A stretch of DNA of 64,000 nucleotides, from NCBI RefSeq assembly GCF_053078305.1, contig NZ_CP166879.1; one strand, 5' to 3'. The notes beneath the pieces are model-generated. The model had not been told where the DNA came from, searched no databases, and saw only the letters and a list, made by a program, of their open reading frames with translations. The translations under genes and the position numbers were made by a program. Below are positions 28,641 through 55,823 of this stretch, in pieces. How positions within the stretch are numbered: the stretch's first letter is position 1; the number at the start of each line of letters is the position of its first letter.

Positions 28641-28681
28641 TTTGTTGTGATTGTGAGGTGAGAGTTTTTGCGAGGTGAGGA

Positions 28682-31091: not shown

Positions 31092-31281
31092 ACTGCAGGC
31101 GCTGCGTCAGGCGCGCCTTGATTTATTAACCGGTAAACGGGTGGTGTCTGTCCAGAAAGATGGTCGCAGAATTGAATATACGGCGGCCTCTCTGGATGAG
31201 CTTAACCGTGCGATCAATGATGCTGAGTTGGTACTGGGGACAACCCGCCGTCGCCGTCGTCCGCTGGGAGTGAGGTTATGA
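31075..31281 (+). CDS. W: Head-tail joining protein gpW
   Basis: 68 aa in the lambda W position, with a basic C-terminus. Confidence 0.8.
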   Translation: MVTVAELQALRQARLDLLTGKRVVSVQKDGRRIEYTAASLDELNRAINDAELVLGTTRRRRRPLGVRL

Positions 31282-32098
31282 AACGAACGCCTGTCCTGAT
31301 TGATGTGAACGGCGTTCCGCTTCGGGAGAGCCTAAGCTACAACGGGGGCGGCGCAGGATTTGGCGGGCAAATGGCAGAGTGGTTGCCACCCTCGCAGAGT
31401 GCCGATGCGGCCCTGCTGCCCGCGTTGCGTCTGGGGAATGCCCGTGCAGATGATCTGGTGCGCAATAACGGAATAGCGGCCAATGCGGTGGCCCTGCATA
31501 AGGATCACATTGTCGGGCATATGTTTCTGATTAGCTACCGTCCGAACTGGCGCTGGCTGGGGATGCGGGAGACCGCGGCAAAAAGTTTTGTCGATGAGGT
31601 GGAGGCGGCCTGGTCAGAATACGCAGAAGGGATGTTTGGTGAGATCGACGTGGAAGGGAAACGCACGTTTACGGAATTTATCCGTGAAGGTGTGGGCGTT
31701 CATGCGTTTAACGGCGAAATCTTTGTGCAGCCGGTCTGGGATACGGAGAGCACGCAACTGTTTCGTACGCGTTTTAAAGCCGTGAGTCCGAAACGGGTGG
31801 ACACGCCAGGACACGGTATGGGGAACCGTTTTCTGCGGGCCGGTGTGGAGGTCGATCGATATGGTCGTGCCGTTGCGTACCATATCTGTGAGGATGATTT
31901 TCCTCACTCCGGGAGTGGACGATGGGAACGGATCCCGCGTGAACTTCTCACCGGGCGTCCGGCCATGCTGCATATTTTCGAGCCGGTGGAGGACGGGCAG
32001 ACCCGTGGGGCCAATCAGTTTTACAGCGTCATGGAACGGCTGAAGATGCTCGATTCCCTGCAGGCAACACAGCTTCAGTCGGCCATTGTTAAAGCCAT
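31278..32098 (+). pseudogene. B: Portal protein gpB, 5' part (about 273 codons), interrupted by island insertion
   Basis: Lambda B-like up to ...TQLQSAIVKA, then 17 unrelated codons and a stop at 32150. Confidence 0.9.
32091..32098. repeat. attL core (AAAGCCAT)
   Basis: Identical octamer at 43930-43937. TATG follows 1 nt downstream at both junctions. Confidence 0.7.
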
Positions 32099-32227: not shown

Positions 32228-32280
32228 GTGTATTGCAATGTGTATTGCAAATTGGCGATCGGGATGGGTGTGTATTGCAA
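32228..32280. repeat. GTGTATTGCAA repeats (candidate integrase arm-type sites, left arm)
   Basis: Three copies at 32228-38, 32240-50 and 32270-80. Two more lie at 43835-57 near the other end. Confidence 0.5.
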
Positions 32281-32298: not shown

Positions 32299-33540
32299 AT
32301 GGCTATTGAAAACAAACTCAGTGACAAACTGTTAAAGAGTCTTGTCGGAAAACGGCAGGACAAACAAAAAACAATAGCGGATGGGCGCGGGTTGTCTGTG
32401 CGTGTAAGCATGGTTGGGGGGATCAGCTTTGTTTTTTACTATCGTCTTGGTGGCAGGGAATCCCCTCCGGTATGGCTTACACTTGGGCGCTATCCTGATA
32501 TGTCTCTTGCAACAGCCAGGCGCATGCGTGATCAGTGCCGTGAGTGGCTGGCTGAAAATCTGGACCCCCGCAGGCAAATAAAACTTGCCGCCGAAAAAAC
32601 CATGCAACCAGTGACCGTAAGGGATGCGCTGTTTTACTGGTACGACAATCACGCCACAACAGCCAGAAAAGAGCATGAATATTTAATAAAACGATTTGAA
32701 AAGCATATCTTCCCCTATATCGGTGATATGGCTATAGAACAGTGCAAATTACACACATGGCTTGCCGTCTTTGACAGGATCAAAAAAAATGCGCCTGTTA
32801 TGTCTGGTGCAATTTTTCTTGATATCAAACAGGCGTTGCGTTTTTGTCGCGTCAGGCAATACATCGCGTGCGATCCCTTTGGCGATATTAACGTAAGTTA
32901 TGTCGGGCGCTCATCCGGTATAAGGGATCGCGTTCTTAATATCAATGAAACAGCGGATGTATGGTCTTATGCTTACGGTAATAATTTGCTGACACTGTCA
33001 TCAATACATAACAGAAGAATAATGGTTATCTGCCTGGTGTTTGGTTGCCGTCAGCAGGAGGCGAGGTTATCCACATGGGACGAATGGGATTTAAAAAACT
33101 GGGTATGGACAGTCCCAAAAGAGCACAGCAAAAACAAGGAGGCCATAGTAAGGCCTGTTCCTGACGGCATAAAACAATGGCTCGTTAATCTTTACGCAGA
33201 AACAAAAAATCGCGGTTATGTTGTCGGTTGTGCTTTGCAAAGGGCGACAATAACAGGGGCTGCAAACAGAATATGCAGGCGTCTTGGTCATGATATTAAT
33301 GGCTTGTGGTGCATACATGATTTCAGGCGCACATTTTCCACTGCGCTTAATGATATGGGGGCGGATCCTTATATTGTCGAACTTCTTTTAGGTCATAAAG
33401 TGAAAGGGGTTGCCGGTGTTTACAATAAAAGCAGGCATATAAAGAAAAAACTTGAGGTGCTTAATATGTGGGTTAATTACCTTAATACGATAGCAGGATT
33501 TAACAACAACGTTATCGAGCTTAATAAAGAGGTGGTGTGA
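32299..33540 (+). CDS. int: P4-type tyrosine integrase
   Basis: 413 aa. N-terminal KLSDKLLKSL...DGRGLSVRV...FVFYYRLGG (DUF4102-like arm-binding domain). C-terminal HDFRRTFST...LLGHKV..VAGVYN. Confidence 0.9.
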   Translation: MAIENKLSDKLLKSLVGKRQDKQKTIADGRGLSVRVSMVGGISFVFYYRLGGRESPPVWLTLGRYPDMSLATARRMRDQCREWLAENLDPRRQIKLAAEKTMQPVTVRDALFYWYDNHATTARKEHEYLIKRFEKHIFPYIGDMAIEQCKLHTWLAVFDRIKKNAPVMSGAIFLDIKQALRFCRVRQYIACDPFGDINVSYVGRSSGIRDRVLNINETADVWSYAYGNNLLTLSSIHNRRIMVICLVFGCRQQEARLSTWDEWDLKNWVWTVPKEHSKNKEAIVRPVPDGIKQWLVNLYAETKNRGYVVGCALQRATITGAANRICRRLGHDINGLWCIHDFRRTFSTALNDMGADPYIVELLLGHKVKGVAGVYNKSRHIKKKLEVLNMWVNYLNTIAGFNNNVIELNKEVV

Positions 33541-33541
33541 T

Positions 33542-33799
33542 ATGGCAATTTATTCTCTTGTTGATGAAAACGATTTGCGCACAATGAAGGACATTGATCG
33601 GTTCATTCGTGAAAAAGAGTGCATAGCACTTACCACGCTGGCAAACTCAACACGCTGGAAAATGGAGCAGGCAGGTAAATTCCCGCGACGTATCAAGATC
33701 GGTGAACGTGCGGCAGGGTATCGACTTTCAGAGGTTCAGGCATGGATCCGTGGTGAGTGGCATCCTGGATGGAAACCTGGAAAAACAAAACAGCAATAA
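33542..33799 (+). CDS. alpA: AlpA-family regulator/excisionase
   Basis: 85 aa with ...STRWKMEQAGKFPRRIKIGERAAGYRLSEVQAWI, the AlpA/Vis-type HTH. Directly after int. Confidence 0.75.
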   Translation: MAIYSLVDENDLRTMKDIDRFIREKECIALTTLANSTRWKMEQAGKFPRRIKIGERAAGYRLSEVQAWIRGEWHPGWKPGKTKQQ

Positions 33800-33853: not shown

Positions 33854-34432
33854 ATGAATAAAAATATTGCCGTGACGGGCAAGGGGTACGCTCGTCCAGT
33901 GAAAAAATTCTGTGATATTCGTGATCTTGTCGTTCTGCGCTTTGATGGTGTGAGCGTTCGCGTGGTGTATGTGAACGGCGATCCGTGGTTTGTTGCCGTT
34001 GACGTGTGCGCTGCGCTGGAAATTGTTGATCACAAGGTTGCGTTACGCCGTCTCGATGATGATGAAAAGGGGGAGTGTTTAATACCCACCCCAGGTGGAA
34101 ATCAAACAATGCGAACGGTATGCGAGTCAGGGTTCTACAAACTAATCGCCAGAAGTCGGAAAGCTGTTACTCCTGGCACGTTCGCCCGTCGTTTCAGTAA
34201 CTGGGTATTCAGAAATGTGATACCAGGTATCAGAAAAACGGGGGCTTATGGTATCCCGTGGGGGGCATTACAGGATTTTTCCCGCCGTAAAGAGCAATAT
34301 CAAATAAGTGCCAGCGAGAAGGGGAGGGAGCTACAGGCATGTAAGCGCAAAAAACGTGAACTGGAGGAAGAAGAAAAAAGGCTGATACGTGAATATCAGC
34401 CTGAGTTTTACTTTGGTGAGCGTATTCAGTAA
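33854..34432 (+). CDS. BRO-N domain protein (antirepressor-like)
   Basis: ...LRFDGVSVRVVYVNGDPWFVAVDVCAALEI...GGNQTMRTVCESGFYKLIARSR, a Bro-N pattern. Confidence 0.65.
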   Translation: MNKNIAVTGKGYARPVKKFCDIRDLVVLRFDGVSVRVVYVNGDPWFVAVDVCAALEIVDHKVALRRLDDDEKGECLIPTPGGNQTMRTVCESGFYKLIARSRKAVTPGTFARRFSNWVFRNVIPGIRKTGAYGIPWGALQDFSRRKEQYQISASEKGRELQACKRKKRELEEEEKRLIREYQPEFYFGERIQ

Positions 34433-34800: not shown

Positions 34801-34895
34801 GAGAAAGAGCGGCGCGTATGCACCGCTAAGGAGTTTATTTTCATGACTTATGCAGCTTTCAATCTTAGCACCGCCGTAGCTGGTGGACAAGGCTA

Positions 34896-35123
34896 TCAGC
34901 CAGGCGGTCGGTTTTTAGTGGCTTTTAACCGCCGTGGGTATTTCTCGACAAAATCTTCAAGGGCAAATTTTTCTGGTGGCACTAAGCGCGGCGCTGGTGG
35001 TGGTATTTTTGTTCTGGTTAGTTCTTCCTCAAGTCTGGCGCAGGCTTCTAACTGCCTTTGCCGGATGATTTCATCATCTTGCGTTTGCGTGTCTTGTATT
35101 GGTGATAGTGTGTTGTTGGTCAT
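34896..35123 (-). CDS. Hypothetical protein (second gene of the leftward regulatory operon)
   Basis: 75-aa ORF downstream of the RHH gene. Confidence 0.4.
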   Translation of the reverse strand: MTNNTLSPIQDTQTQDDEIIRQRQLEACARLEEELTRTKIPPPAPRLVPPEKFALEDFVEKYPRRLKATKNRPPG

Positions 35124-35180
35124 GATACTGCCCTGTAAAGCAATGCGCCGGAGTACCTCACGCCACGGCGCTGATAGTGA

Positions 35181-35486
35181 TTATTCTGATTCTTGGGTCT
35201 TGCGACGCTGGAGTTCTTCGCGTGCAACGGTGACAAGTTGCCCGATTTCTTCCGCTGCTTTGATGCCGATTTGTTCGACCTTAGCCAGAGCATCCAGTGA
35301 AGACACAAGGGGATTTTCTCCGCTGCCTTCTGCCTGGCGGCGGGCGATTTCACCGCGCATGGCGGTTACTATGAATCCGGCGTTGCTTTCACCGTCCAGT
35401 TTTACGGATTCCATGCCTTCAATAACATCATGCGGGATCCGAGCTGTCAGTGATTGTGATTTTGCGTTTTTTGAACCTGTAGCCAT
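35181..35486 (-). CDS. Ribbon-helix-helix (Arc/CopG-like) regulator
   Basis: ATG at 35486 with RBS GAGAGGA. N-terminal KSQSLTARIPHDVIEGMESV beta-strand/helix pattern. Divergent from the rightward operon. Confidence 0.55.
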   Translation of the reverse strand: MATGSKNAKSQSLTARIPHDVIEGMESVKLDGESNAGFIVTAMRGEIARRQAEGSGENPLVSSLDALAKVEQIGIKAAEEIGQLVTVAREELQRRKTQESE

Positions 35487-35507
35487 CTGTAATCCTCTCA
35501 ATGAAAG

Positions 35508-35576
35508 TGTAAGACAATATACACATAAAAAGTCTTACATAAAAGCATTGACATGTAAGCCACCTATAAATAAAGT
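35508..35576. promoter_or_regulatory. Operator palindrome plus rightward promoter
   Basis: TGTAAGAC (35508-15) and GTCTTACA (35532-39) form an inverted repeat. TTGACA (35548-53), 17 bp, TAAAGT (35571-76). Confidence 0.45.
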
Positions 35577-35805
35577 TACTTACACCTTGTTAATGCAAGG
35601 TGCAGAAACGACGAAACCCGGCAGTGCGCTAACACTAACCGGGCTTCTAACCACCAACGATAGAAAGCGTATCGAGGTAGCTATGAGAAATCATACCACA
35701 CACCCGCAAGGGCGGGACTCGCACAACCTGAATAAATACATCTGGCGTTTTCTGGCCCGAAAAAACCAGTTGATCGCCAGTGTCGAAAATAGCTATGATT
35801 CCCGC

Positions 35806-35883
35806 GCACCTCATAAAACGGGTGCCGGGATTGGCGTCCTGGGCAAAACTGAAGCGCATAACACGCGCCCCGCGTGTTTTTTT
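35806..35883 (+). ncRNA. C4 / IsrK / P4-CI-like small RNA element in the island leader
   Basis: GCACC-TCATAAAACG-GGTGC; CCGGGA-TTGGCG-TCCTGG; ACACGCG-CCC-CGCGTGT plus T7. Loop 2 is complementary to ACGCCAA at 35963-69. Homologous to 6877-6801. Confidence 0.55.
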
Positions 35884-36045
35884 GTGCCGCATAGTCACAC
35901 CTTATCAATGGTGGGCTGTACGGGGGCGGAGCAATCCGCGCCGGTTTCTTCAGTGTCCGGTTACGCCAACCCTGTACAGTCCGCCACCAGCGAAATTGGC
36001 GTTTCCGGTGGCGGTTATCTTAACCACACTGAGGAGGCTGCCAAC

Positions 36046-36237
36046 ATGGCTACTATCCCTACCCTTGTACATTCTCAAACCGCCTTTCTCTGGCGCTTTA
36101 TCATCTTTGGCGCGTCAGACCATCAAATCATCCACGTCACCGCCTGGACGGAACGCGAAGCGCGTAGCCGTTGCCCGTCCGGTTGTGTTGCTGTATTCGC
36201 CGCCCGTATTCGTCAGGAGGTGTGCCATGTGCAATAA
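36046..36237 (+). CDS. Icd-like small protein (host cell-division inhibitor family of P1/P4-type elements)
   Basis: RBS GAGGAGG. MATIPTLVHSQTAFLWRF...VTAWTEREARSRCPSG... Has the same first 7 codons as the helper rha gene. Confidence 0.5.
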   Translation: MATIPTLVHSQTAFLWRFIIFGASDHQIIHVTAWTEREARSRCPSGCVAVFAARIRQEVCHVQ

Positions 36238-36918: not shown

Positions 36919-37218
36919 ATGAAACTTAAATATCCTGGCTTAACTGCCAGTGGCAACACTCACCCTAAATTTACGCGCGGTGATATTTACCGCGACCAGT
37001 ACGGCGGCACGGTAATGATTAAGGGCGTGGCGGGACGGTGCGTAACTTACCGCCGTGAAGGCTACGAATATGATTGCGTGATGCCTGTTTATCAGTTCCG
37101 GCGTGATTTTTCTCTGGTACAGACCGCGCCGCATAACGTGCCCACCAGCAACGCCAGGGCACGGGCAAACATCCAGAAGCTGAAAACCATGATTAACGGA
37201 TTCAGGGGTAAAAAATGA
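36919..37218 (+). CDS. Hypothetical protein
   Basis: 99-aa coupled ORF. Confidence 0.4.
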   Translation: MKLKYPGLTASGNTHPKFTRGDIYRDQYGGTVMIKGVAGRCVTYRREGYEYDCVMPVYQFRRDFSLVQTAPHNVPTSNARARANIQKLKTMINGFRGKK

Positions 37219-38624
37219 AACTGGCACCGAACGTAAAACGATTACCGAAAGATAAATACACCGAAGCGGTTATTTTTGCGGGTATTGATGCTCACTCATT
37301 CGCAGAGCATTACATCATTGCACAGGCCAAAAAAGCAGGCGATCCAGTCCCTCCCGTTTATCTGGGGCGTTATCAGTTAAGCGAACTGGATAACCTCCAG
37401 ATTGTTGATGATGGGCGATACAGGGCGACGGTGATACGCGCCGGAAATATTGAAGAGCCGCAGCTGTTAACCATCGCCACGAAACTGGCGAGCGCCGGAG
37501 TCCAGGAGGCGCGGCTACTTTCTGAAAATTTCGAATTGCTGGAGGAATGGAGCGACCAGCTTCCACGGCTTAGGGAGGCATGGGAACGCGGGGAAAGCCT
37601 GGTCATGAAAAAAATTCCCCAGCGAAAAACCACGCTACCGATGAGCGTTGGATCTACCGGATACGACACACAGCTTGATTACGTGGTAAAGGGGATTATT
37701 CCGGCATCGTCGCTTTGCAGCATATACGGGGCGAGCGGTTCCTATAAATCATTCCTTGCCGGATCGTGGGCGTGTCACGTTTCCACGGGCCGCCAGTGGG
37801 GAGGCCGCAGGGTGGCGCATGGCGCTGTTCTCTATGTGGTTGGTGAAGGCGGTATCGGCGTTCCGCGTCGTGTAAAAGCCTGGGAGGTTGTGCACGGTGA
37901 GCAGGTGAAAAATCTGTATCTGGTAAACCGTCCCATCTTTCCGGCTGTCCCGCTTGATGTTGATGAACTGGTTATTGCTGCCAGTCAGGTGGAGAGGGAA
38001 ACGGGTAAACCTGTTCGCATGATTATTCTGGACACGCTGGCGCGTTGCTTTGGCGGCAATGATGAAAATGACTCCCGCGACATGGGGGCATTTATCCGTG
38101 GTTGTGACGAGCTTAAACGGCGCACAGGGGCTACGGTGCTGGTGGTTCACCATTCCGGCAAGGATGAAACAAAGGGGGCGCGTGGTTCCAGTGCATTTCG
38201 TGCATCACTGGACGCTGAATACCGGATACGCAGGGAGGACGCAGGAAGCGAAGCGCTGGTTATCTCATGCACCAAAATGAAGGACGCGGAGGAACTCAAA
38301 GAGGCTGCCTATGATTTGCGGGTGGTGGAGCTTTTTACCGACGCTGACGGGGAGTTAATTACGTCGCTGGTGGTGGTGGATAAGCCGCGCCCTCCCGTTG
38401 AACTGGAGCGCATCGAGGAGGCAGGCAACAAGACGGAAAACCATACCGCGCTATGGGGGTGCATCCGTTCACGCACACAGAACGGCGACAAGTGCACGAT
38501 CCCGCTGTTACGTGACGATATGAAAAAGCTGGGGTATGACACAAAACACCTTAAACGATGGTTAGCCAAACTGGAAAAAGACGACGTGATCTACATTGAC
38601 GGTGATGATGTAGGACCACTGTAA
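37215..38624 (+). CDS. Replication protein with RepA/AAA_25-type RecA-fold ATPase domain
   Basis: Walker A-like YGASGSYKSF, MIILDTLARCFGG..ENDSRDM and LVVHHSGKDETKGARGSSA motifs typical of RepA-like helicases. Iterons follow. Confidence 0.65.
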   Translation: MKLAPNVKRLPKDKYTEAVIFAGIDAHSFAEHYIIAQAKKAGDPVPPVYLGRYQLSELDNLQIVDDGRYRATVIRAGNIEEPQLLTIATKLASAGVQEARLLSENFELLEEWSDQLPRLREAWERGESLVMKKIPQRKTTLPMSVGSTGYDTQLDYVVKGIIPASSLCSIYGASGSYKSFLAGSWACHVSTGRQWGGRRVAHGAVLYVVGEGGIGVPRRVKAWEVVHGEQVKNLYLVNRPIFPAVPLDVDELVIAASQVERETGKPVRMIILDTLARCFGGNDENDSRDMGAFIRGCDELKRRTGATVLVVHHSGKDETKGARGSSAFRASLDAEYRIRREDAGSEALVISCTKMKDAEELKEAAYDLRVVELFTDADGELITSLVVVDKPRPPVELERIEEAGNKTENHTALWGCIRSRTQNGDKCTIPLLRDDMKKLGYDTKHLKRWLAKLEKDDVIYIDGDDVGPL

Positions 38625-38826: not shown

Positions 38827-39078
38827 ATGACTCAAAAACACAGAGACAGAACAGAGCCAAAATATAAAGCGTTAGACATGACAGAGCACGCTTTAAAGGT
38901 GGCAATCAGGGTAATAGACCGCCACACGCGGGAAGGATACGCGAAGGAACATCCCGACCTGATAAGCGCATTCATGACCACAGCGGCGGCAAACTTTGCC
39001 ACGCTGACAGAACGGGAGATAGCCGAAGCGGAACAGGTAACAACCATCAACGTTAAAACCGGAGAGGTGGAATCATGA
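38827..39078 (+). CDS. Hypothetical protein
   Basis: 83 aa from the ATG at 38827. Longer starts (38695 GTG) would read through the iterons. Confidence 0.35.
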   Translation: MTQKHRDRTEPKYKALDMTEHALKVAIRVIDRHTREGYAKEHPDLISAFMTTAAANFATLTEREIAEAEQVTTINVKTGEVES

Positions 39079-39485
39079 CAGCACAGATAGCCGCTTACGG
39101 GCGGCTGGTGGACGACCCGCAGGTAAAACAAACCAGCAAGGGCACACCGATGACGCTGGCGCGTATGGCGGTATCTCTGCCATGCAGCCAGGCACAGGAC
39201 GGGCAGGCTACGTTATGGCTATCAGTGATGGCATTTGGTAAGCAGGCCGACTTCCTGGCTAAACATCAAAAAGGCGATGTTGCCAGCGTATCCGGCACGA
39301 TGCAGGTAAGCCAGTGGACCAGACAGAACGGGGAAACGCGGCAGGGTTATCAGGTTATTGCAGACAGTGTAATCAGTGCCCGTGCTGCCCGTCCTGGCGG
39401 GAGCAGACGTACAACCACAGGCACACAGGGTAATCAGCCACCAGCGGGAGGCGATGACCCTTACGGTGACGGTATTCCGTTCTGA
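39075..39485 (+). CDS. ssb: Single-stranded DNA-binding protein
   Basis: OB-fold N-terminus, Gly/Pro-rich linker and an acidic tail DDPYGDGIPF. Confidence 0.8.
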   Translation: MTAQIAAYGRLVDDPQVKQTSKGTPMTLARMAVSLPCSQAQDGQATLWLSVMAFGKQADFLAKHQKGDVASVSGTMQVSQWTRQNGETRQGYQVIADSVISARAARPGGSRRTTTGTQGNQPPAGGDDPYGDGIPF

Positions 39486-39495: not shown

Positions 39496-39768
39496 ATGGT
39501 ACATGACCGCATAGCGGAGGAACTCGAGGCAAAAGGCTTTTACCGGAGGGCGGCGGCGCGATGGGGTGAAGTTATGCAGCTGGTGGAGACAGACAAGGAA
39601 CGGCATCAGGTTACGATGCGACGGCTGGAATGTTCCAGGAAGGCACAGAGGCCACCGGAGCCGCCGGATAACTTCGGAGACCTGAAAAAAGCAGTAGATC
39701 GCACTTATGCCGAAATGGGTATGGATGGTGTAAGCGATGAAATATGGCGTAATTACCCAGACAGCTAA
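39496..39768 (+). CDS. PerC-like transcriptional activator
   Basis: MVHDRIAEELEAKGFYRRAAARWGEVM.. resembles the recalled PerC-family N-terminus. Confidence 0.45.
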   Translation: MVHDRIAEELEAKGFYRRAAARWGEVMQLVETDKERHQVTMRRLECSRKAQRPPEPPDNFGDLKKAVDRTYAEMGMDGVSDEIWRNYPDS

Positions 39769-39774
39769 TCAACA

Positions 39775-39796
39775 GCCGGAGAAATCCGGCTTTTTT
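39775..39796 (+). terminator. Intrinsic terminator
   Basis: GCCGGAGAAATCCGGC plus T6, identical to the hairpin at 42049-42071. A second hairpin lies at 39810-39845. Confidence 0.65.
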
Positions 39797-40007: not shown

Positions 40008-40214
40008 ATGGCTGAAGAGAAAAAAGGCGGTGTTTCGGTGTACATAAGCCCCGAAATCGTGGAGGTGCTCAAGCAGCGCCACAAAAAAAACTATGAGGCT
40101 GGCGTAGCGGCTGGACTGGATCCGCTGATGACGCCGGAGCCGTCGATAGGTTCACTTGTGCGCTCTTATTTACTTGCGGCGCTTGGGATGCATAAAAATT
40201 ATGGTGGTGAATAA
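40008..40214 (+). CDS. Hypothetical small protein, first gene of the island head operon
   Basis: 68 aa, RBS AAGAGGA. Stop overlaps the capsid-gene start. Confidence 0.4.
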   Translation: MAEEKKGGVSVYISPEIVEVLKQRHKKNYEAGVAAGLDPLMTPEPSIGSLVRSYLLAALGMHKNYGGE

Positions 40215-41269
40215 TGACAGTAAAAGCAATGGCACTTACAACTAACCAGCTTTTCGCGTACCTGAATCGCGGGGATATTGCAGAATTTAAATTCAGTCCG
40301 CTGTTTACCACGCTGTTTTTCCCGAACGTGGCGACCTTCAACACCCAGAACATCATGCTGGACACCCTGGACATTGAAGAGGTTACGATGTCAGCGTTCT
40401 GTTCGCCTATGGTGGGTAGTCAGGTCCAGCGCGATAAAGGGTACGAAACCAGCACGATTAAACCAGGCTACATGAAACCCAAACACGAAATCGATCCAAC
40501 AAAAACCATCATGCGCATGGCTGGAGAAGATCCGGCACAGCTTAACGACCCTACCTACCGCCGTATGCGCCTGATTACTGGCAACATGCGCCGCCAGATA
40601 AACGCCATTAAAGCGCGCGTGGAATGGCTGGCGGTGAATGCGATAACGACCGGAAAAAACATCATTGAGGGCGAAGGCATAGAACGCTATGAAATCGACT
40701 GGAAAATACCGGAAAACTGCATCATAGAGCAGGCCAAGGGTAAAAAATGGTCCGAGCATGATAAAGATATTTACGATCCAATCTATGACATCGAACTATA
40801 CGCAGATCAGGCAGGTTGCCCCGCCAACGTCATGATTATGGGCGCTGAGGTATGGCGCACGTTACGCAGCTTTAAAAAATTCCGCGAACTGTACGATCTT
40901 TCCCGTGGTTCAGAATCCGCCGCAGAACTGGCCTGTAAAAACCTGGGTGAAGTAGTGAGCTTTAAAGGCTATCTGGGCGATATTGCCCTTATCGTCTATT
41001 CCGGCAAATACACTGACAGCGACGGTACCGAAAAATATTTCCTTGAGCCTGATTTGCTGGTCCTGGGTAACACCAACAATAAAGGGCTGGTGGCCTATGG
41101 TGCGATTATGGATCAGGAAGCGGTAAGAACGGGCGCAACGCAAAACATGTTCTACCCGAAAAACTGGATTGAAGACGGCGATCCGGCGATTGAGTACGTT
41201 CAGACGCACAGCGCACCGCAGCCGGTACCGGCAGATATTCGCAAATTTGTTACCGTCAAAATTGCTTAA
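40214..41269 (+). CDS. Lambda gpE-family major capsid protein paralogue (E')
   Basis: 351 aa. Shares PGY.KPKHE, GEDPAQLNDP.YRR, VVSFKGY.GD, DGTEK, YPK.W and GDPA.E blocks with helper E (46646-47674). Confidence 0.85.
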   Translation: MTVKAMALTTNQLFAYLNRGDIAEFKFSPLFTTLFFPNVATFNTQNIMLDTLDIEEVTMSAFCSPMVGSQVQRDKGYETSTIKPGYMKPKHEIDPTKTIMRMAGEDPAQLNDPTYRRMRLITGNMRRQINAIKARVEWLAVNAITTGKNIIEGEGIERYEIDWKIPENCIIEQAKGKKWSEHDKDIYDPIYDIELYADQAGCPANVMIMGAEVWRTLRSFKKFRELYDLSRGSESAAELACKNLGEVVSFKGYLGDIALIVYSGKYTDSDGTEKYFLEPDLLVLGNTNNKGLVAYGAIMDQEAVRTGATQNMFYPKNWIEDGDPAIEYVQTHSAPQPVPADIRKFVTVKIA

Positions 41270-41280
41270 CGGGGGATTCT

Positions 41281-41616
41281 ATGGACACTCCATACATTGA
41301 GTTATTTGCAGGCAGTCAGCAGGTATCCACGACGCTGGTACATTTTGCCGCTGATGCTGGCGTTATTCAGGAATTTACCCCGCTGATGCTGGCGGACAAT
41401 GGCGAGTTTAAGCCGTGGGATGGTCAGGAATCTGGCAAGGCTGTTTATCTGACCTCGTACCCCGTGGACACGTCAAAGCAGAAATCAGCACAGTGTTACA
41501 AGACGGGGATATTTAATATCGCCGCCGTAAACTGGCCTGAGAGCGCCGACACTGACGCGAAAAAATGCGCCGCCTTTGCGGGTTCTGGCGTATCCGTTCA
41601 GCCGCTGGCGCGATAA
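41281..41616 (+). CDS. Lambda gpD-family head decoration protein paralogue (D')
   Basis: 111 aa. Shares TPLML, WDGQ, YK.G.F, WPES and AF.G blocks with helper D. Confidence 0.75.
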   Translation: MDTPYIELFAGSQQVSTTLVHFAADAGVIQEFTPLMLADNGEFKPWDGQESGKAVYLTSYPVDTSKQKSAQCYKTGIFNIAAVNWPESADTDAKKCAAFAGSGVSVQPLAR

Positions 41617-41628
41617 GCAGGGGAAACG

Positions 41629-42042
41629 ATGGCAACGAATGAAAGCATCATGGCGCTACCGCTGGCGAGTAAATTTAAAGCAGAAGCGCGGGCAATGGCT
41701 GACAGAGGTTTATCAACCTACGAGGCCGTATATCAACTCAACAAACTGGAAGAGCAGGACAAGCCGCGCGCTGATGCGATTATGGCGCTTCATGAACATA
41801 ACGACTATCAGCCGCTGTTACGTGCAATGGCAAACGTGCCATGTATTAGCGTCGATAATGCTCGTGAAATCCTGAACATGACCATAGAGCAGGAGCGCCC
41901 AAAGGTTGCGCCGGAGCTTACCGCAGCCTTTGAAAACTTTATGGACATGCACAGCCCGAAAGCCGTATCACCCGGCATGGCATACGACGGCAGAAACCAG
42001 GGCGATGAAGGCGACGTCGATCGCATACTGAAAACCATCTGA
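41629..42042 (+). CDS. Nu3-like scaffolding protein (Nu3')
   Basis: The tail LTAAFENFMDMHSPKAVSPG...GDEGDVDRIL parallels the helper gpC tail TTALFEHFMANHSPAAVQGG...GDADVKML. Also IMALHE...ISVDNAREIL versus IMALDE...MTVESARAVL. Confidence 0.65.
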   Translation: MATNESIMALPLASKFKAEARAMADRGLSTYEAVYQLNKLEEQDKPRADAIMALHEHNDYQPLLRAMANVPCISVDNAREILNMTIEQERPKVAPELTAAFENFMDMHSPKAVSPGMAYDGRNQGDEGDVDRILKTI

Positions 42043-42048
42043 CATAAG

Positions 42049-42071
42049 GCCGGAGAAATCCGGCTTTTTTT
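42049..42071 (+). terminator. Intrinsic terminator abutting the island cos
   Basis: GCCGGAGAAATCCGGC plus T7. Confidence 0.65.
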
Positions 42072-42073
42072 AC

Positions 42074-42140
42074 GGGTCCTTTCCGGCATATGGACCCGTT
42101 ACGGGGCGGCGACCTCGCGGTTTTTCGCTATTTATGAGCT
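42074..42140 (+). promoter_or_regulatory. Island cos site 2 (same orientation as helper cos)
   Basis: 42074-42120 is identical to helper 28457-28503, including GGGCGGCGACCT (42104-42115). The downstream cosB-equivalent is different. Confidence 0.85.
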
Positions 42141-42248
42141 TTTTTCGGGTGCTGGTGGTGGTTTTGTTGTTCGCTCTATCTCTATGAATAAAAAGGGAAA
42201 GATAAAACCAATACACCAACCTGAAACATTACTTAAGTGGGGATATTG

Positions 42249-42791
42249 ATGAAATCGCACCTGATGAACAAAAAAAACATGGCGCAAAGCTGCCGTGTAA
42301 GTGCGACAGCGTTCGACAAGTGGGGAGTGACTCCCGTTGAACGTAAAGGACGCGAGGCTTTTTACGATGTTGCCAGCGTGATAGACAATCGGGTAAGCAA
42401 TGCAATTAACCAGGTTACAAACGACAAAGGCGAGATTGATGATGATGAACTCTTACGAGTCAGGATCAGATTACTGACCGCCCAGGCTGAGGCGCAGGAA
42501 CTTAAAAACGAGCGCGATCGCGGTGACGTAATTGATACTGAGTTTTGCCTGTACGCGCTTTCAAAGCTGGCGAGTCAGATTTCTTCAATCATGGACAGTT
42601 TGCCGCTTACCATGCAAAGGCGCTTCCCGCAGATTACTCCCGCTATGCTGGATGGGCTTAAAAGGGAAGTGGTTAAAGCCTGTAATGCCAGTGCCACAGT
42701 TGCCGACAACCTCCCGAAGATACTGGCTGATTACCTGATGGAAACTACCGGAGACGTACCGGAGAAGTTGCTACAGAAGAAAGGCGAGTAA
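42249..42791 (+). CDS. Nu1-family terminase small subunit paralogue (TerS')
   Basis: N-terminal MNKKNMAQSCRVSATAFDKWGV resembles lambda Nu1 (VNKKQLADIFGASIRTIQNW). The C-terminal FCLYALSKLASQISSIMDSLPLTMQRRFPQI..ILADYL parallels the helper TerS. Start 42237, 42249 or 42264. Confidence 0.8.
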   Translation: MKSHLMNKKNMAQSCRVSATAFDKWGVTPVERKGREAFYDVASVIDNRVSNAINQVTNDKGEIDDDELLRVRIRLLTAQAEAQELKNERDRGDVIDTEFCLYALSKLASQISSIMDSLPLTMQRRFPQITPAMLDGLKREVVKACNASATVADNLPKILADYLMETTGDVPEKLLQKKGE

Positions 42792-42940: not shown

Positions 42941-43014
42941 GGAAAATTTTCATAAACAGATAAAAACCGCGAGGTCGCCGCCCCGTAACGGGCCATAATT
43001 CCAGGAAGGACCCG
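42941..43014 (-). promoter_or_regulatory. Island cos site 3 (inverted, diverged flanks)
   Basis: Reverse complement reads GGGTCCTTCCTGGAATTATGGCCCGTTACG-GGGCGGCGACCT-CGCGGTTTTTATCTGTTTATGAAAATTTTCC. The core lies at 42972-42983. Confidence 0.8.
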
Positions 43015-43834: not shown

Positions 43835-43857
43835 GTGTATTGCAATGTGTATTGCGA
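43835..43857. repeat. GTGTATTGCAA repeats (right arm)
   Basis: GTGTATTGCAA at 43835-45 and GTGTATTGCGA at 43847-57. Confidence 0.5.
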
Positions 43858-43929
43858 CTCCTTTAAACGATAGGTTTGAGCATTCGTAATGTACTGTTTT
43901 TAAATTTTATTTTTTCCTGTCTTTTCATA

Positions 43930-44709
43930 AAAGCCATGTATGCAGCGACGATTGAAAGTGAACTTGATACCGAAAAGGCCTTTGAATATATCGCCGGTGC
44001 GCCGCAGGGGCAGAAGGATAATCCGCTTATTAATATTCTGGATAAGTTCTCCACCTGGTATGACACGAATATCGTGACGCTGGGCGGTGTCAAAATTCCG
44101 CACCTTTTCCCCGGTGATGATCTGAAACTTCAGACCGCGCAGGATTCAGACAATGGATTTTCGGCGCTTGAACAGGCGCTGCTGCGGTATATCGCCGCCG
44201 GTCTTGGCGTTTCCTACGAACAGTTGTCCCGTGATTACTCGAAGGTCAGTTATTCAAGTGCCCGCGCCTCCGCCAATGAGTCGTGGCGCTATTTTATGGG
44301 ACGACGAAAATTTATTGCAGCCCGGCTGGCCACGCAGATGTTTTCCTGCTGGCTGGAAGAGGCACTTCTTCGGGGGATTATCCGTCCGCCACGGGCACGT
44401 TTTGATTTTTATCAGGCGCGTTCAGCCTGGTCGCGGGCAGAGTGGATTGGCGCAGGAAGAATGGCCATTGACGGGCTCAAGGAGGTCCAGGAATCAGTGA
44501 TGCGCATTGAGGCCGGACTGAGCACGTATGAGAAAGAGCTGGCGCTGATGGGTGAGGATTATCAGGACATTTTCCGCCAGCAGGTCAGGGAATCCGCAGA
44601 GCGGGAAAAAGCCGGACTCTCACGTCCGGTGTGGATAGCGCAGGCGTATCAGCAGCAGATAGCAGAGAGCCGCAGGCCGGAAGAGGAGACAACACCACGT
44701 GAGACGTAA
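43930..44709 (+). pseudogene. B: Portal protein gpB, 3' part
   Basis: KAMYAATIESELD...LLRYIAAGLGVSYEQLSR...ARASANESWRYFMGRRKF...GAGRMAIDGLKEVQE is collinear with the recalled lambda B C-terminal half. Codons upstream of 43930 are island DNA. Confidence 0.9.
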
Positions 44710-48470: not shown

Positions 48471-48940
48471 ATGGCGATAAAAGGGCTTGATCAGGCGATT
48501 GATAATCTGAGCCGGGTTCGTAAAAACGCCATTCCTGCTGCTTCAGCAATGGCCATTAACCGCGTGGCCACAACGGCAATAAATCAGTCTGCGTCACAGG
48601 TTGCCCGTGAGACAAAGGTACGCCGGAAACTGGTAAAGGAAAGGGCCAGGCTGAAAAGGGCCACGGTAAAAAATCCGCAGGCCAGAATCAAAGTTAACCG
48701 GGGGGATTTGCCTGTAATCAGGCTGGGTAATGCGCGGGTTGTCCTGTCCCGACGCAGGCGACGTAAAAAGGGGCAGCGTTCATCCCTGAAAGGTGGCGGC
48801 AGTGTGCTTGTGGTGGGTAACCGTCGCATTCCCGGCGCGTTTATTCAGCAACTGAAAAATGGGCGGTGGCATGTCATGCAGCGTGTGGCCGGGAAAAACC
48901 GTTACCCCATTGATGTGGTAAAAATCCCGATGGCGGTGCC
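48471..48940 (+). pseudogene. Z: Tail protein gpZ, truncated at about codon 157 by the Mu-like insertion
   Basis: MAIKGLDQAIDNLSR...YPIDVVKIPMAVP matches recalled lambda Z. The frame then reads VTR-stop in foreign DNA. Confidence 0.85.
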
Positions 48941-49115
48941 TGTAACCAGGTAAATCATTTGATACCGACAAGGGTTTTAGTGAAAGGAGGTGAAATCACC
49001 TGTAAGATACTGAAATAAAACAGGTGATCGATGATTCTGGAGGTTGTTTAGTTTTGATACTGATTAAATAAAATCCGGTATAAAATTAAGGTATCGGCAA
49101 CAAATTTGATACTGC
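48941..49115. repeat. Left-end transposase binding-site region (attL of Mu-like phage)
   Basis: TTTGATAC at 48958-65, 49053-60 and 49105-12. Related AAGATAC at 49004 and inverted GTATC at 49091. The terminal dinucleotide is TG. Confidence 0.6.
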
Positions 49116-49245
49116 ACATACTGCTTATGGACGTTTTTAAAAGTACTTAAAATGTCTTTTATGCTAAAAAGTTTATATCAATATCGATCTGGTCACAAAT
49201 CAAGTTGAAAGTGCTCGCTAAGTGCATAGCCTGGGCTTCATGGGG

Positions 49246-49764
49246 TTACGCTTTGGCTTCTTTATGGGTTAAATTGAAATGATGCTCCTTGGTTTCATCT
49301 CCCTCGAAAATCTCTCTAACCTTTTGATCTGATAAATTATTAAGGCTCAATGCTGCCAGGCGTCGAATACCTGTTAAAGCGATCAACTCTTGATTCTCTT
49401 GATTGCAGAATTCCAGCAATTTTTCTACCCCTTTCCTTCTCAAGGTGTAAATAACTAATTCTTGCTCTTCTTGGCTCAAAGTGTCGATGAGTTCGAGCAA
49501 CTCGCTATTGCCACCGTTCTTTTGAGGGGGCTGGTGTTTTATTTCTGCACTACCTGTAATGATGGAAACAACATGTGCAGGTAAGTCGCTTAAACGGTAG
49601 GCAAATGCTCTCCCTCTGATACCAGGTGTAGTTACCGAACGTTTTTCCCATCCTTCATTTTTTGCTCGTTTATGAAGCCCAGCCAGAGATGAAGGAAGAC
49701 CTCCAACCCCCAACAAGTCACTGGCAAGGATCCATTCTTGGTCAAGGATCATATCAAACTCCAT
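49246..49764 (-). CDS. Mu-type repressor
   Basis: 172 aa on the minus strand at the left end. N-terminal domain LLGVGGLPSSLAGLHKRAKNEGWEKR is shared with the transposase N-terminus, as in Mu c/A. Confidence 0.7.
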   Translation of the reverse strand: MEFDMILDQEWILASDLLGVGGLPSSLAGLHKRAKNEGWEKRSVTTPGIRGRAFAYRLSDLPAHVVSIITGSAEIKHQPPQKNGGNSELLELIDTLSQEEQELVIYTLRRKGVEKLLEFCNQENQELIALTGIRRLAALSLNNLSDQKVREIFEGDETKEHHFNLTHKEAKA

Positions 49765-49981
49765 TTGATATTAACTTTTGTTTATATCTTTTATGCGGTT
49801 TATTTCAAAAATAACTCAATAAAAAACAAATAGATACAGAGCAAATTTAAAAATTTGAAATTAACCAGTTGATATTTACTAAGTTAATATCTAACATATC
49901 AAACATACACTAGTGAGTAACTCAATAGAGTAGCACACATGAGTAATAAAGTTTGCCATAGAAAGTACACAGGGGGCCATT

Positions 49982-50227
49982 GTGAGTCTTATTGAAGATT
50001 GGTCTTCCGCCGATATAAAGGCAGCCTTAGAAAAACGCGATACCAATTTGTCACGTTTATCAAGGGAAAATAATTTGCAGCCTAGGACTTTGGGTAATGC
50101 TTTGCGAGTTCCCTACCCTAAAGGTGAAAAGATAATTGCTAGGGCTATAGGTGTAGAGCCACAGGTTATTTGGCCTACTAGATATGAACGACGTGCGCGG
50201 AGGAAATATGTGGGTTGCAATGACTGA
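49982..50227 (+). CDS. ner: Ner-like early regulator
   Basis: DWSSADIKAALEKRDTNLSRLSRENNLQPRTLGNAL...KGEKIIARAIGVEPQVIWPTRYE resembles recalled Mu Ner. Confidence 0.75.
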   Translation: MSLIEDWSSADIKAALEKRDTNLSRLSRENNLQPRTLGNALRVPYPKGEKIIARAIGVEPQVIWPTRYERRARRKYVGCND

Positions 50228-52292: not shown

Positions 52293-52363
52293 AATAAAAA
52301 AATAACCCGAGCGGCGACTCAGGTTATTTGATTAAACAAGGTATCAAATGAAAGGTTAATAAT

Positions 52364-53296: not shown

Positions 53297-53520
53297 TTAT
53301 GGCGGTATTTAATATTCCTGATATTTACGGACGCTTTTACCTGGTTAATTTCGATAACGTGAAGGTGATTTCACTGGCCGAAAATAAAGAATGTGGCGAT
53401 TTACTTTTTGAATTTAATGACCGCACACGAATGGTGATATCTGCCGGACTTGATCGCGAAGGTGCGACAGACGTTTACAGCGGAATATGCCGTTCTGTTG
53501 GTGCGAAACAAGTCAGCTAA
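53293..53520 (+). CDS. Hypothetical early protein
   Basis: 75-aa coupled ORF. Confidence 0.35.
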   Translation: MIMAVFNIPDIYGRFYLVNFDNVKVISLAENKECGDLLFEFNDRTRMVISAGLDREGATDVYSGICRSVGAKQVS

Positions 53521-53787: not shown

Positions 53788-53788
53788 G

Positions 53789-54340: not shown

Positions 54341-54344
54341 TTCC

Positions 54345-54638: not shown

Positions 54639-54649
54639 GGAAAAACAAA

Positions 54650-55180: not shown

Positions 55181-55277
55181 CACCGCATTAAATCTTTAAA
55201 TATCACATCGTTTTAAGTATGGCGCTCGCGTCAGGGGACTGTCTGCGCCTGTAAACTGAAAATAAGGAACAGGATAT

Positions 55278-55820: not shown

Positions 55821-55823
55821 TTC

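What the first reader, a model, noticed from the sequence alone, without database searches (positions are those of the whole stretch)
40008..42791. The island encodes diverged copies of helper capsid, decoration, scaffold and small terminase but no portal, protease, TerL or tail genes
Seen: 40214-41269, 41281-41616, 41629-42042 and 42249-42791 are diverged paralogues of the helper's E, D, the Nu3-type tail of C, and Nu1. Shared blocks are visible by eye. Capsid: PGY.KPKHE, GEDPAQLNDP.YRR, VVSFKGY.GD, DGTEK, GDPA.E. Decoration: TPLML, WDGQ, YK.G.F, WPES. Scaffold: A.FE.FM..HSP.AV and (T/S)V(E/D).AR..L. Gene order is permuted (E-D-Nu3-cos-Nu1, against Nu1-A-W-B-C/Nu3-D-E in the helper). No portal, protease domain, TerL, W, FI, FII or tail gene is present. 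Established: SaPI, PICI and P4 satellites remodel helper capsids with scaffold-like or capsid-like proteins (CpmAB, Sid, Ccm), and cf-PICIs carry a complete HK97-type head module. Inference: this is an intermediate design. It has its own shell, cement, scaffold and DNA-recognition subunit, and would depend on the helper's portal, protease, packaging ATPase and tail. At 11.84 kb it is about one quarter of a lambda-size chromosome, so either a smaller shell built by E' or multimer packaging is expected.
Basis: partly seen in the sequence, partly recalled or inferred. Interest (0 to 1): 0.9.

Follow-up and report, generated by a model that had tools for sequence, protein, structure and literature searches.

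The report
Known satellite island with capsid genes
This is a known type of E. coli phage satellite (an EcCICFT073-family PICI, here sitting inside its helper prophage's portal gene) that carries its own lambda-type capsid, decoration, scaffold-like and small-terminase genes; near-identical capsid and decoration genes were shown in 2018 to be dispensable for transfer, so what they do is still unknown.

Summary
Window 40214-42791 encodes a lambda-E capsid protein (E'), a gpD decoration protein (D'), a 137-aa protein homologous to the scaffold tail of the helper's protease C (Nu3'), a cos site and a full-length Nu1-type small terminase (TerS'). The 11,839-bp island has no portal, protease, TerL, W, FI, FII or tail gene.

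It is not new. E', D' and Nu3' are 96.6%, 97.3% and 89.8% identical to c1499, c1500 and the next gene of the prototype PICI EcCICFT073. The c1499 orthologue has a crystal structure (PDB 3BQW). [quoted passage not shown]

Published experiments on EcCICFT073 weaken the "own small shell" reading:
- Deleting c1499 or c1500 changes neither transfer nor interference.
- Packaged DNA is phage-sized.
- Only Rpp blocks lambda when the late genes are expressed one at a time.

What I add:
- E'/D' form a satellite-only clade. No phage capsid in 50,697 records exceeds 47% identity, and the satellite/phage split has 200/200 bootstrap support.
- E' is under strong purifying selection (dN/dS 0.07-0.15).
- E'-D' is the constant core of a variable late zone.

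The role of the shell genes remains open.

The parts
32091..32098 (+). attL core (AAAGCCAT) inside the helper portal gene B
   Evidence: Removing the 11,839 bp between the two cores restores a 530-aa portal that is 98.3% identical to the intact CFT073 prophage portal. The break falls at Pfam Phage_portal_2 profile positions 238/239.
32299..33540 (+). Island tyrosine integrase
   Evidence: Pfam Arm-DNA-bind_3 and Phage_integrase. It is 54% identical to the integrase of a capsid-gene-embedded PICI and 99% identical to that of the portal-embedded island in E. coli EC28.
33542..33799 (+). AlpA-family regulator or excisionase
   Evidence: Pfam Phage_AlpA, E=5e-14.
33854..34432 (+). Bro-N domain protein
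   Evidence: Pfam Bro-N, E=5e-16.
35806..35991 (+). isrK and C4 RNAs (P4-type immunity RNA pair)
   Evidence: Rfam isrK 66 bits and C4 77.6 bits, both above their gathering scores.
37215..38624 (+). Replication helicase (RepA / AAA_25 type)
   Evidence: Pfam AAA_25, E=6.5e-44. PHROG_2850 and primase/helicase families.
39075..39485 (+). Single-stranded DNA-binding protein
   Evidence: PHROG_44. It is 97% identical to the EcCICFT073 SSB.
39496..39768 (+). PerC-family transcriptional activator, directly upstream of the late cassette
   Evidence: Pfam PerC, E=3.4e-45.
40008..40214 (+). orf68, a small conserved ORF whose stop overlaps the E' start codon; function unknown
   Evidence: PHROG_3255, E=8.5e-46. 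It is present upstream of E' in related islands. It has no similarity to gpW.
40214..41269 (+). E', a lambda-type (HK97-fold) major capsid protein of the satellite lineage
   Evidence: Pfam Phage_cap_E, E=2.5e-50. It is 96.6% identical to EcCICFT073 c1499. It matches PDB 3BQW at E=2.9e-232. dN/dS is 0.07-0.15.
41281..41616 (+). D', a gpD-type head decoration (cement) protein
   Evidence: Pfam HDPD, E=1e-17. It matches solved gpD/SHP structures at E=6e-13. It is 97.3% identical to EcCICFT073 c1500. It sits next to E' in 15 of 15 elements.
41629..42042 (+). Nu3', a scaffold-like protein collinear with the C-terminal ~133 aa of the helper's protease/scaffold C
   Evidence: BLASTP E=2e-9. hhalign 96.6%, E=5e-10. 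Full-length alignment shows two IMAL..E..V..A..L repeats plus the F(E/D)xFMxxHSPxAV tail. The predicted structure is all-helical with pLDDT 65.
42049..42070 (+). Intrinsic terminator after Nu3'; an identical 22-nt copy lies at 39775-39796
42072..42137 (+). cos1: a cosQ-cosN-I2-like segment, with cosN GGGCGGCGACCT at 42104-42115
   Evidence: It is 63/65 identical to the helper cos at 28456-28520 and aligns with the lambda left end and EcCICFT073 cos1.
42138..42236 (+). Island-specific cosB-like region
   Evidence: It is conserved among PICIs that carry this TerS' type (RM14516, L007). It is unrelated to the cosB of the helper, lambda or the Rpp-type EcCICFT073.
42249..42791 (+). TerS', a Nu1-family small terminase subunit, in the slot where EcCICFT073 has RppA
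   Evidence: Pfam Phage_Nu1, 84.9 bits. PHROG_57, E=8.8e-52. It is 36% identical to lambda Nu1 over the full length. It has no similarity to RppA (E=1.3). dN/dS is 0.10-0.25.
42945..43012 (-). cos2: a second cos site in inverted orientation (cosN 42983 to 42972)
   Evidence: It is 62/69 identical to the helper cos. It mirrors the functional cos1/cos2 pair of EcCICFT073 (PMC6092414).
43048..43329 (+). orf93, a conserved last gene of the island; function unknown
   Evidence: PHROG_1561, E=1.5e-55. It is 82-86% identical in EcCICFT073 and RM14516.
43930..43937 (+). attR core (AAAGCCAT); the helper portal 3' part follows (43938-44709)

Best explanation
Shown: The region is the late zone of an 11,839-bp classical Gram-negative PICI of the EcCICFT073 family. 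The island is in the helper-embedded configuration, integrated co-directionally in the portal gene of a lambda-like prophage.

Inferred, by analogy with the EcCICFT073/Rpp system and SaPI TerS: after induction the island excises and replicates from its own helicase/SSB module into concatemers. It is then packaged by the cos route. The diverged N-terminal DNA-binding domain of TerS' would read the island's own cosB. Its C-terminal domain, 48% identical to the helper's Nu1, would recruit the helper's TerL, which cuts at a cosN identical to the helper's. The DNA would leave as roughly four-unit multimers (47.4 kb) in full-size lambda-type heads on the helper's portal and tails.

Shown: orf68-E'-D'-Nu3' is a conserved cassette of a satellite-specific lineage, and it encodes a matched shell, cement and scaffold-like set.

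My best guess, and the weakest step: these proteins make or join ordinary full-size lambda-type shells. They would act as an accessory or backup supply that is redundant with the helper's E/D/Nu3 under laboratory conditions. I do not think they act as a capsid-size switch.
For: Identity of the element:
- The order int-AlpA-Bro-C4/isrK-DUF4222-helicase-SSB-PerC-late zone matches the family.
- E', D', Nu3', SSB and orf93 are 82-97% identical to EcCICFT073.
- Excising 11,839 bp restores a portal 98.3% identical to an intact one. The break is at profile position 238/239, which matches the published B:Phage_portal_2:241 site (PMC10111431).
- The same portal|int junction occurs in other E. coli genomes.

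Packaging:
- cos1 is 63/65 identical to the helper cos, with identical cosN.
- cosB co-varies with the TerS'/Rpp type.
- TerS' is a full-length Nu1 homologue under purifying selection.
- In EcCICFT073, both cos sites work, helper TerS/TerL are required, and packaged DNA is phage-sized (PMC6092414; PMC6739421).

Shell cassette is functional but accessory:
- dN/dS is 0.07-0.15 for E'.
- The cassette is intact in 593 of 5,426 complete E. coli genomes.
- E'-D' are adjacent in 15 of 15 elements from six genera.
- The orthologue has an HK97-fold crystal structure, 3BQW.
- E' is collinear with lambda E, with no domain-level change.
- Deleting c1499 or c1500 has no effect on transfer or interference (PMC6092414, section 13).
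- No single late gene other than rpp inhibits lambda (PMC6739421, section 8).
Against: - No experiment shows E', D' or Nu3' in any particle, so their role is inferred only.
- Strong purifying selection and a satellite-only clade are hard to reconcile with plain redundancy.
- The published knock-outs used one island, without TerS', and few helpers.
- TerS' binding to cosB and to the helper's TerL is untested. TerS' types occur with helpers that carry different Nu1 types.
- The flanking prophage is also broken by a Mu-like insertion in tail gene Z, so it may not be the working helper.
Confidence: 0.6

Rival explanations
1. E', D' and Nu3' build a satellite-only, smaller-than-T=7 shell on the helper's portal, using the helper's protease. 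TerS' plus the helper's TerL fill it with one island unit. This would be a half-way design between classical PICIs and capsid-forming PICIs.
For: - The island carries a matched shell, cement and scaffold-like trio.
- E' belongs to a satellite-only clade under strong purifying selection.
- The island is about a quarter of a lambda genome.
- There are precedents: SaPIbov5 Ccm and PmCI172 (PMC6893505).
Against: - With EcCICFT073, whose E' and D' are 96.6% and 97.3% identical, all packaged DNA was phage-sized, and deleting c1499 or c1500 did not change transfer (PMC6092414).
- Nu3' is absent from 10 of 15 related elements.
- E' is collinear with lambda E, with no insertion that suggests a change in shell size.
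Confidence: 0.12
2. E' and D' are interference or defence factors. They would poison or act as decoys in capsid assembly of helper or competing lambdoid phages, and would not build transducing particles.
For: - Satellites commonly interfere with helper assembly.
- E' is too diverged (38-48% identity) to be an obvious co-assembly partner.
Against: - Expressing each EcCICFT073 late gene alone did not reduce lambda or phage 80 plaques; only rpp did (PMC6739421, section 8).
- Deleting c1499 or c1500 did not relieve interference (PMC6092414).
- There are no PADLOC hits.
- Keeping a matched decoration protein makes little sense for a poison.
Confidence: 0.06
3. The genes are recently captured helper late genes with no current function; that is, passengers in decay.
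For: - Late-gene capture by PICIs is documented (PMC10111431).
- Knock-outs show no phenotype (PMC6092414).
Against: - dN/dS is 0.07-0.15 for E', comparable to SSB.
- The ORFs are intact in 593 genomes.
- No phage source is above 47% identity.
- The clade is monophyletic across genera.
Confidence: 0.03

Closest known systems
EcCICFT073, the prototype E. coli PICI (Fillol-Salom et al. 2018 ISME J; 2019 Mol Cell)
   Same: - Same overall organisation.
- orf68, E', D', Nu3', SSB, PerC and orf93 are 68-97% identical.
- Two cos sites with lambda-type cosN.
- About 11-12 kb in length.
   Different: - The window island has a 180-aa Nu1-type TerS where EcCICFT073 has RppA (144 aa; no detectable similarity).
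- Different integrase (40% identity) and integration site (prophage portal gene rather than the chromosomal roxA-phoQ site).
- RepA-type helicase instead of a D5-type primase.
Helper-embedded PICIs (Tommasini, Mageeney and Williams 2023), site B:Phage_portal_2:241
   Same: - Integrated co-directionally inside the lambda-type portal gene at the same profile position.
- Integrase of the same clade.
- Four-zone layout (integration, Bro, replication, late).
- Carries a capsid gene.
   Different: This particular mosaic, which combines the portal-site integration module with the EcCICFT073-type shell cassette and TerS', is not present at 80% or more coverage in any of 5,426 complete E. coli genomes. 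The EC28 portal-embedded island has a different late zone.
Capsid-forming PICIs (EcCIEDL933; Alqurainy et al. 2023)
   Same: - A satellite that encodes its own major capsid protein.
- The satellite capsid proteins form a clade separate from phage homologues.
   Different: - cf-PICIs also encode portal, protease, head-tail connectors, TerL and HNH, and they make small capsids.
- None of these genes is present here.
- The capsid protein here is lambda-E type and comes with a gpD cement.
SaPIbov5 Ccm (a capsid-protein homologue that redirects phi12 capsid shape)
   Same: A satellite-encoded homologue of the helper's major capsid protein in a cos-packaged island.
   Different: Ccm is required for size redirection and strongly interferes with the helper. 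The EcCICFT073 orthologue of E' does neither in the published tests. Here the capsid homologue also comes with its own decoration protein.
SaPI TerS (SaPI1/SaPIbov1) and Rpp
   Same: A satellite-encoded DNA-recognition subunit that redirects the helper's large terminase to satellite DNA.
   Different: - SaPI TerS serves headful (pac) packaging, whereas this one is a cos/Nu1-type subunit.
- Rpp lacks the TerL-binding C-terminal domain and works by forming a heterocomplex with helper TerS.
- TerS' has the full Nu1 architecture.

Membership tests
Classical Gram-negative PICI (EcCICFT073 type) | int and alpA at the left end, reading inward | tested here: met
   Pfam Phage_integrase and Phage_AlpA at 32299-33799, + strand.
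Classical Gram-negative PICI (EcCICFT073 type) | Own replication module (primase or helicase, with or without SSB) | tested here: met
   AAA_25 helicase at 37215-38624 and SSB at 39075-39485.
Classical Gram-negative PICI (EcCICFT073 type) | Late zone with cos and Rpp or TerS; no tail or lysis genes; about 10-15 kb | tested here: met
   cos1, cos2 and TerS' are present. No tail, lysis, portal or TerL families were found. Length is 11,839 bp.
Classical Gram-negative PICI (EcCICFT073 type) | Induced, packaged and transferred by a helper phage | not testable with these tools
   This has been shown only for EcCICFT073 in the literature (PMC6092414).
Helper-embedded PICI (HE-PICI) | Integrated inside a prophage late gene and co-oriented with it; excision restores the gene | tested here: met
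   The portal is split at profile positions 238/239. The in-silico excision product is a 530-aa portal 98.3% identical to an intact homologue.
Helper-embedded PICI (HE-PICI) | Integrase of the 11capE-related clade | tested here: inconclusive
   The integrase is 54% identical to that of a Phage_cap_E-site island and 99% identical to that of EC28's portal-embedded island. No tree was built against the published clade.
Capsid-forming PICI (cf-PICI) | Own portal, prohead protease, head-tail connectors and TerL | tested here: not met
   None was detected by Pfam, PHROGs or tblastn with the helper's portal, protease and TerL.
Lambda gpE major capsid protein family (PF03864) | Full-length profile match and HK97 fold | tested here: met
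   171.9 bits against a cutoff of 22.9. The orthologue has a solved structure, 3BQW, and E' matches lambda gpE 7VI9 at E=7.7e-82. My own AlphaFold model was too poor to use (pLDDT 43).
Lambda gpD / SHP decoration protein family (PF02924) | Profile match above the gathering score | tested here: met
   64.7 bits against a cutoff of 29.1. It matches solved gpD/SHP chains at E=6e-13 to 1e-9.
Lambda-type Nu3 scaffold (C-terminal part of protease C) | Homology to the Nu3-equivalent tail of a lambda-family C protein; small helical protein | tested here: met
   Helper C: hhalign 96.6%, E=5e-10, with a collinear alignment. The model is all-helical. Against lambda Nu3 itself the match is only 56%, E=1e-4.
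Lambda-type Nu3 scaffold (C-terminal part of protease C) | Acts as a scaffold in procapsid assembly and is removed by protease C | not testable with these tools
   No experiment on this gene was found in the papers searched.
Nu1-type small terminase (PF07471) | Full-length Nu1 architecture next to cos | tested here: met
   84.9 bits against a cutoff of 30. It is 36% identical to lambda Nu1 over residues 6-166. It lies 112 nt downstream of cos1.
Nu1-type small terminase (PF07471) | Binds its cognate cosB and the helper's TerL | not testable with these tools
   The only evidence is indirect: cosB co-varies with TerS' type, and the C-terminal domain is 48% identical to helper Nu1.
Rpp (redirecting phage packaging) | Sequence similarity to RppA/B/C | tested here: not met
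   TerS' against RppA gives E=1.3. There was no match to the solved RppC chains at E<=0.01.
Ccm-type capsid size redirection | A satellite capsid homologue that causes small capsids and interference | not testable with these tools
   Published tests on the 96.6%-identical orthologue were negative: phage-sized DNA and no effect of deletion (PMC6092414, section 13).

The most novel reading that the evidence does not exclude
E'-D', with Nu3' in some lineages, would be an old, satellite-only lineage of lambda-type shell proteins. With the right natural helpers, it would assemble satellite-specific capsids on a stolen portal. That would be a true intermediate between classical PICIs, which steal whole heads, and cf-PICIs, which steal only tails. 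Its function would have been missed because the only knock-outs were tested with lambda-like helpers whose own E/D can substitute.
Probability: 0.2. Interest if true: 0.7.

Novelty: already known. Interest (0 to 1): 0.3.

Why it matters
As a discovery it adds little. The capsid and decoration genes of EcCICFT073-type PICIs, terS-carrying variants and portal-embedded PICIs are all published, and the capsid protein even has a deposited crystal structure.

It does sharpen an unanswered question. A satellite-restricted capsid/decoration pair sits in about 11% of complete E. coli genomes and in several other enterobacterial genera. It is under selection as strong as on the island's SSB. Yet it has no phenotype in the only knock-out tests done. 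Working out what it does, whether that is backup shell supply, helper-range extension or satellite-specific capsids, would fill a gap between classical and capsid-forming PICIs.

Tried and rejected
- AlphaFold2 of E' from an 11-sequence alignment gave pLDDT 43. I judged it unusable and relied on PDB 3BQW/7VI9 sequence matches instead.
- AlphaFold2 of Nu3' (pLDDT 65, all-helical) followed by Foldseek against the PDB gave no match at E<=0.001. This neither supports nor excludes a scaffold role. It gives no support for the RefSeq name 'phage head-tail connector protein'.
- NCBIfam and PADLOC scans of the late-zone proteins found nothing.
- PDB sequence searches with TerS', Nu3' and orf93 found nothing useful.
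- tblastn of Nu3' against the helper with low-complexity masking missed the C-tail match. BLASTP, PHROGs and hhalign all find it.
- The genome-contig scan with the E' clade alignment returned only 3 loci, so the census rests on 15 elements.
- orf68 as a gpW equivalent (both are 68 aa): no similarity.
- TerS' as an Rpp variant: rejected.
- Recent capture from this helper: rejected, because identity to phage E proteins is a uniform 38-48% and the clade split has 200/200 support.


Full report
**1. Checking the observation**

ORF calling and profile searches confirm all four assignments.
- 40214-41269 is a lambda-E-family capsid protein (Pfam Phage_cap_E, E=2.5e-50).
- 41281-41616 is a gpD-family decoration protein (HDPD, E=1e-17).
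- 42249-42791 is a Nu1-family small terminase (Phage_Nu1, 84.9 bits against a cutoff of 30). PHROGs agree.

Pairwise comparisons with the flanking prophage give the following.
- E' against E: 47% identity over 343 aa.
- D' against D: 34%.
- TerS' against Nu1: 48% over the C-terminal 115 aa, with a diverged N-terminus.
- The 137-aa protein against residues 416-493 of protease C: 35% over 83 aa, E=2e-9.

That last, weakest link is reinforced three ways.
- A PHROG_53 'head maturation protease' C-terminal hit (E=1.5e-9).
- A full-length collinear alignment with the last ~133 residues of three helper-type C proteins. It shows two IMAL..E...V..A..L repeats and the F(E/D)xFMxxHSPxAV tail.
- hhalign at 96.6% probability, E=5e-10.

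Against lambda's own Nu3 the match is only marginal (56%, E=1e-4; no BLASTP hit). The scaffold-like protein therefore resembles this helper type's C tail, not lambda's.

Against canonical lambda, E' is 43% identical, D' 37% and TerS' 36% over the full length.

No island ORF matches a portal, protease, TerL, gpW, FI, FII or tail family.

**2. What the element is**

The island lies inside the portal gene of the lambda-like prophage. The 5' part of the portal (31278-32098) matches Pfam Phage_portal_2 positions 2-238. The 3' part (43938-44709) matches positions 239-354. Deleting the 11,839 bp between two AAAGCCAT cores (32091 and 43930) recreates a 530-aa portal that is 98.3% identical to the intact portal of the CFT073 lambda-like prophage.

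The island's layout runs in this order:
- integrase, AlpA, Bro-N
- isrK and C4 RNAs
- DUF4222, RepA-type helicase, SSB, PerC
- the late zone

This is the four-zone organisation described for Gram-negative PICIs. [quoted passage not shown] The same portal|integrase junction occurs in other complete E. coli genomes, for example EC28. There the late zone is of a different type, so the modules are mosaic.

**3. Relation to the prototype**

EcCICFT073, retrieved from the CFT073 chromosome between roxA and phoQ, has the same late zone gene for gene. The amino-acid identities are:

| Gene | Identity to EcCICFT073 |
|---|---|
| orf68 | 68% |
| E' (c1499) | 96.6% |
| D' (c1500) | 97.3% |
| Nu3' | 89.8% |
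| orf93 | 82% |

The one exception is the slot after the first cos site. It holds RppA (144 aa) in EcCICFT073 and a 180-aa Nu1-type TerS here; the two are unrelated in sequence. E. coli RM14516 carries a chromosomal island with the same TerS' at 93% identity.

A PDB sequence search shows that the EcCICFT073 capsid protein has a deposited crystal structure, 3BQW. It matches E' at E=2.9e-232 with only about a dozen substitutions in 351 residues. Lambda gpE structures match at E=7.7e-82.

**4. Published experiments that bear on the interpretation**

For EcCICFT073:
- Lysates with lambda contained only phage-sized DNA.
- Deleting c1499 or c1500 neither restored lambda plaques nor changed transfer by the resident prophages (PMC6092414, section 13).
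- Both cos sites are functional and the helper's TerS is required.
- When each post-ori gene was expressed alone, only c1503 (rppA) blocked lambda and phage 80 (PMC6739421, section 8).
[quoted passage not shown] They suggest the genes may act as backup copies, while noting that a knock-out was tolerated.

I found no later paper in the library that assigns a function to these genes.

**5. What I could add**

(a) Origin.
- tblastn of E' against 50,697 phage records finds 410 homologues, none above 47% identity.
- The large protein collection holds homologues at 52-95% identity.
- Every genomic context I examined is a PICI-like island. This covers Salmonella, E. coli (two types), Edwardsiella and Serratia, plus a Salmonella island embedded among P2-like tail genes.
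- A neighbour-joining tree of 12 island and 8 phage capsid proteins separates the two groups in 200 of 200 bootstraps.
- Identity is 48-97% within islands, 58-100% within phages and 38-48% between the groups.
- Embedded islands are no closer to their own helper's E than to any other.
- E' is therefore not a recent copy of helper E. It is a member of a satellite-restricted lineage.

(b) Selection.

| Gene | dN/dS |
|---|---|
| E' | 0.07-0.15 |
| D' | 0.03-0.35 |
| Nu3' | 0.23-0.33 |
| TerS' | 0.10-0.25 |

The E' values are comparable to the island's SSB.

(c) Prevalence. The orf68-E'-D'-Nu3' cassette is present at 80% or more coverage and 90-95% nucleotide identity in 593 of 5,426 complete E. 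coli genomes.

(d) Architecture. Across 15 elements:
- E' is always followed by D'.
- The third gene is Nu3'-like in 5, an AlpA-like HTH protein in 8, and absent in 2.
- The packaging gene is a Nu1-type TerS, Rpp, or absent.
- No island contains a portal, protease or TerL.
- The different Nu3' types resemble the C tails of different helper types.

(e) Packaging signals.
- cos1 is 63/65 identical to the helper cos, and cosN is identical.
- The adjacent cosB-like region is conserved only among islands with this TerS' type. It is unrelated to the cosB of the helper, lambda or the Rpp-type EcCICFT073.
- A second, inverted cos site lies at 42945-43012, as in EcCICFT073.

**6. Mechanism**

The best-supported part is packaging.
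- The island carries the helper's cosN.
- It has its own cosB.
- It has a full-length Nu1 homologue whose DNA-binding end is diverged and whose TerL-binding end resembles the helper's.

By analogy with Rpp and SaPI TerS, this should redirect the helper's TerL to island concatemers. This step is inferred, not shown.

Four island units (47.4 kb) fit a lambda-size head. That agrees with the phage-sized DNA reported for the prototype.

The role of the shell cassette is unresolved.
- A matched capsid/cement pair under strong constraint argues that E' forms real, expanding, DNA-filled shells.
- The published negative results argue that such shells are not small and not required when a lambda-like helper supplies E and D.
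- I therefore favour an accessory full-size shell supply, with low confidence.
- Interference and junk explanations are poorly supported.

**7. Verdict**

The arrangement is the known late zone of EcCICFT073-family PICIs, in a known helper-embedded configuration. It is not a new intermediate design. The remaining interest lies in the still-unexplained function of a widespread, satellite-only capsid/decoration pair.

Noticed in passing
window 48471-64000: A Mu-like prophage begins at about 48,950 and truncates the lambda-like prophage's tail gene Z (Minor_tail_Z profile 1-157 of 190). Its genes include a repressor at 49246-49764 on the minus strand, MuA at 50184-52292, MuB at 52364-53296, Gam at 54650-55180 and a gp11-like gene at 55824-56357. 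The supposed helper is therefore interrupted twice and is probably not competent as it stands.
   Followed up: partly
window 31278-32098 and 43938-44709: The island sits inside the helper's portal gene. Excision in silico restores a 530-aa portal 98.3% identical to an intact homologue. GTGTATTGCAA repeats, which are likely integrase arm sites, lie just inside both ends at 32228-32280 and 43836-43858.
   Followed up: yes
window 42945-43012 (minus strand): A second cos site (cos2) lies in inverted orientation between TerS' and orf93, so the terminase gene is flanked by two cos sites, as reported for EcCICFT073.
   Followed up: partly
window 39775-39796 and 42049-42070: An identical 22-nt terminator hairpin, GCCGGAGAAATCCGGCTTTTTT, brackets the orf68-E'-D'-Nu3' cassette. 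EcCICFT073 and the RM14516 island have only the downstream copy. It may be a recombination scar or a cassette boundary.
   Followed up: partly
window 34993-35014 and 42151-42172: The cosB core next to cos1, GCTGGTGGTGGT.TTT.TGTTC, has a near-identical copy in the island's regulatory zone. None is expected by chance. Its meaning is unknown.
   Followed up: no
window 35806-35991: isrK and C4 RNA genes, the P4-type immunity RNA pair, score above their Rfam gathering thresholds. The 464-aa ORF at 34843-36237 that overlaps them is probably not a gene.
   Followed up: partly
window 41629-42042 and homologues P0060-P0072: RefSeq names this protein 'phage head-tail connector protein'. No Pfam, NCBIfam or fold-search result supports that name. 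The detectable homology is to the scaffold tail of protease C.
   Followed up: yes
L011 (Salmonella GCA_005980655.1) 3292-10812: An island with a lambda-type E'-D' pair is embedded among P2-like tail genes (baseplate J, gpI and tail fibre upstream; tube, gpU, gpX and gpD downstream). That prophage type presumably uses a non-lambda capsid protein.
   Followed up: no
L013 (Edwardsiella tarda GCA_001700615.1) 786-10394: A portal-embedded island has a late zone of only orf70-E'-D', with no TerS, Rpp or Nu3'. This suggests E'-D' is the minimal conserved late module.
   Followed up: partly
window 28521-28660: The helper's cosB carries repeated CCGGACATG / CATGTCCGG elements, and its Nu1 has a non-lambda N-terminal domain. 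The helper therefore has its own packaging specificity type, distinct from lambda and from the island.
   Followed up: no
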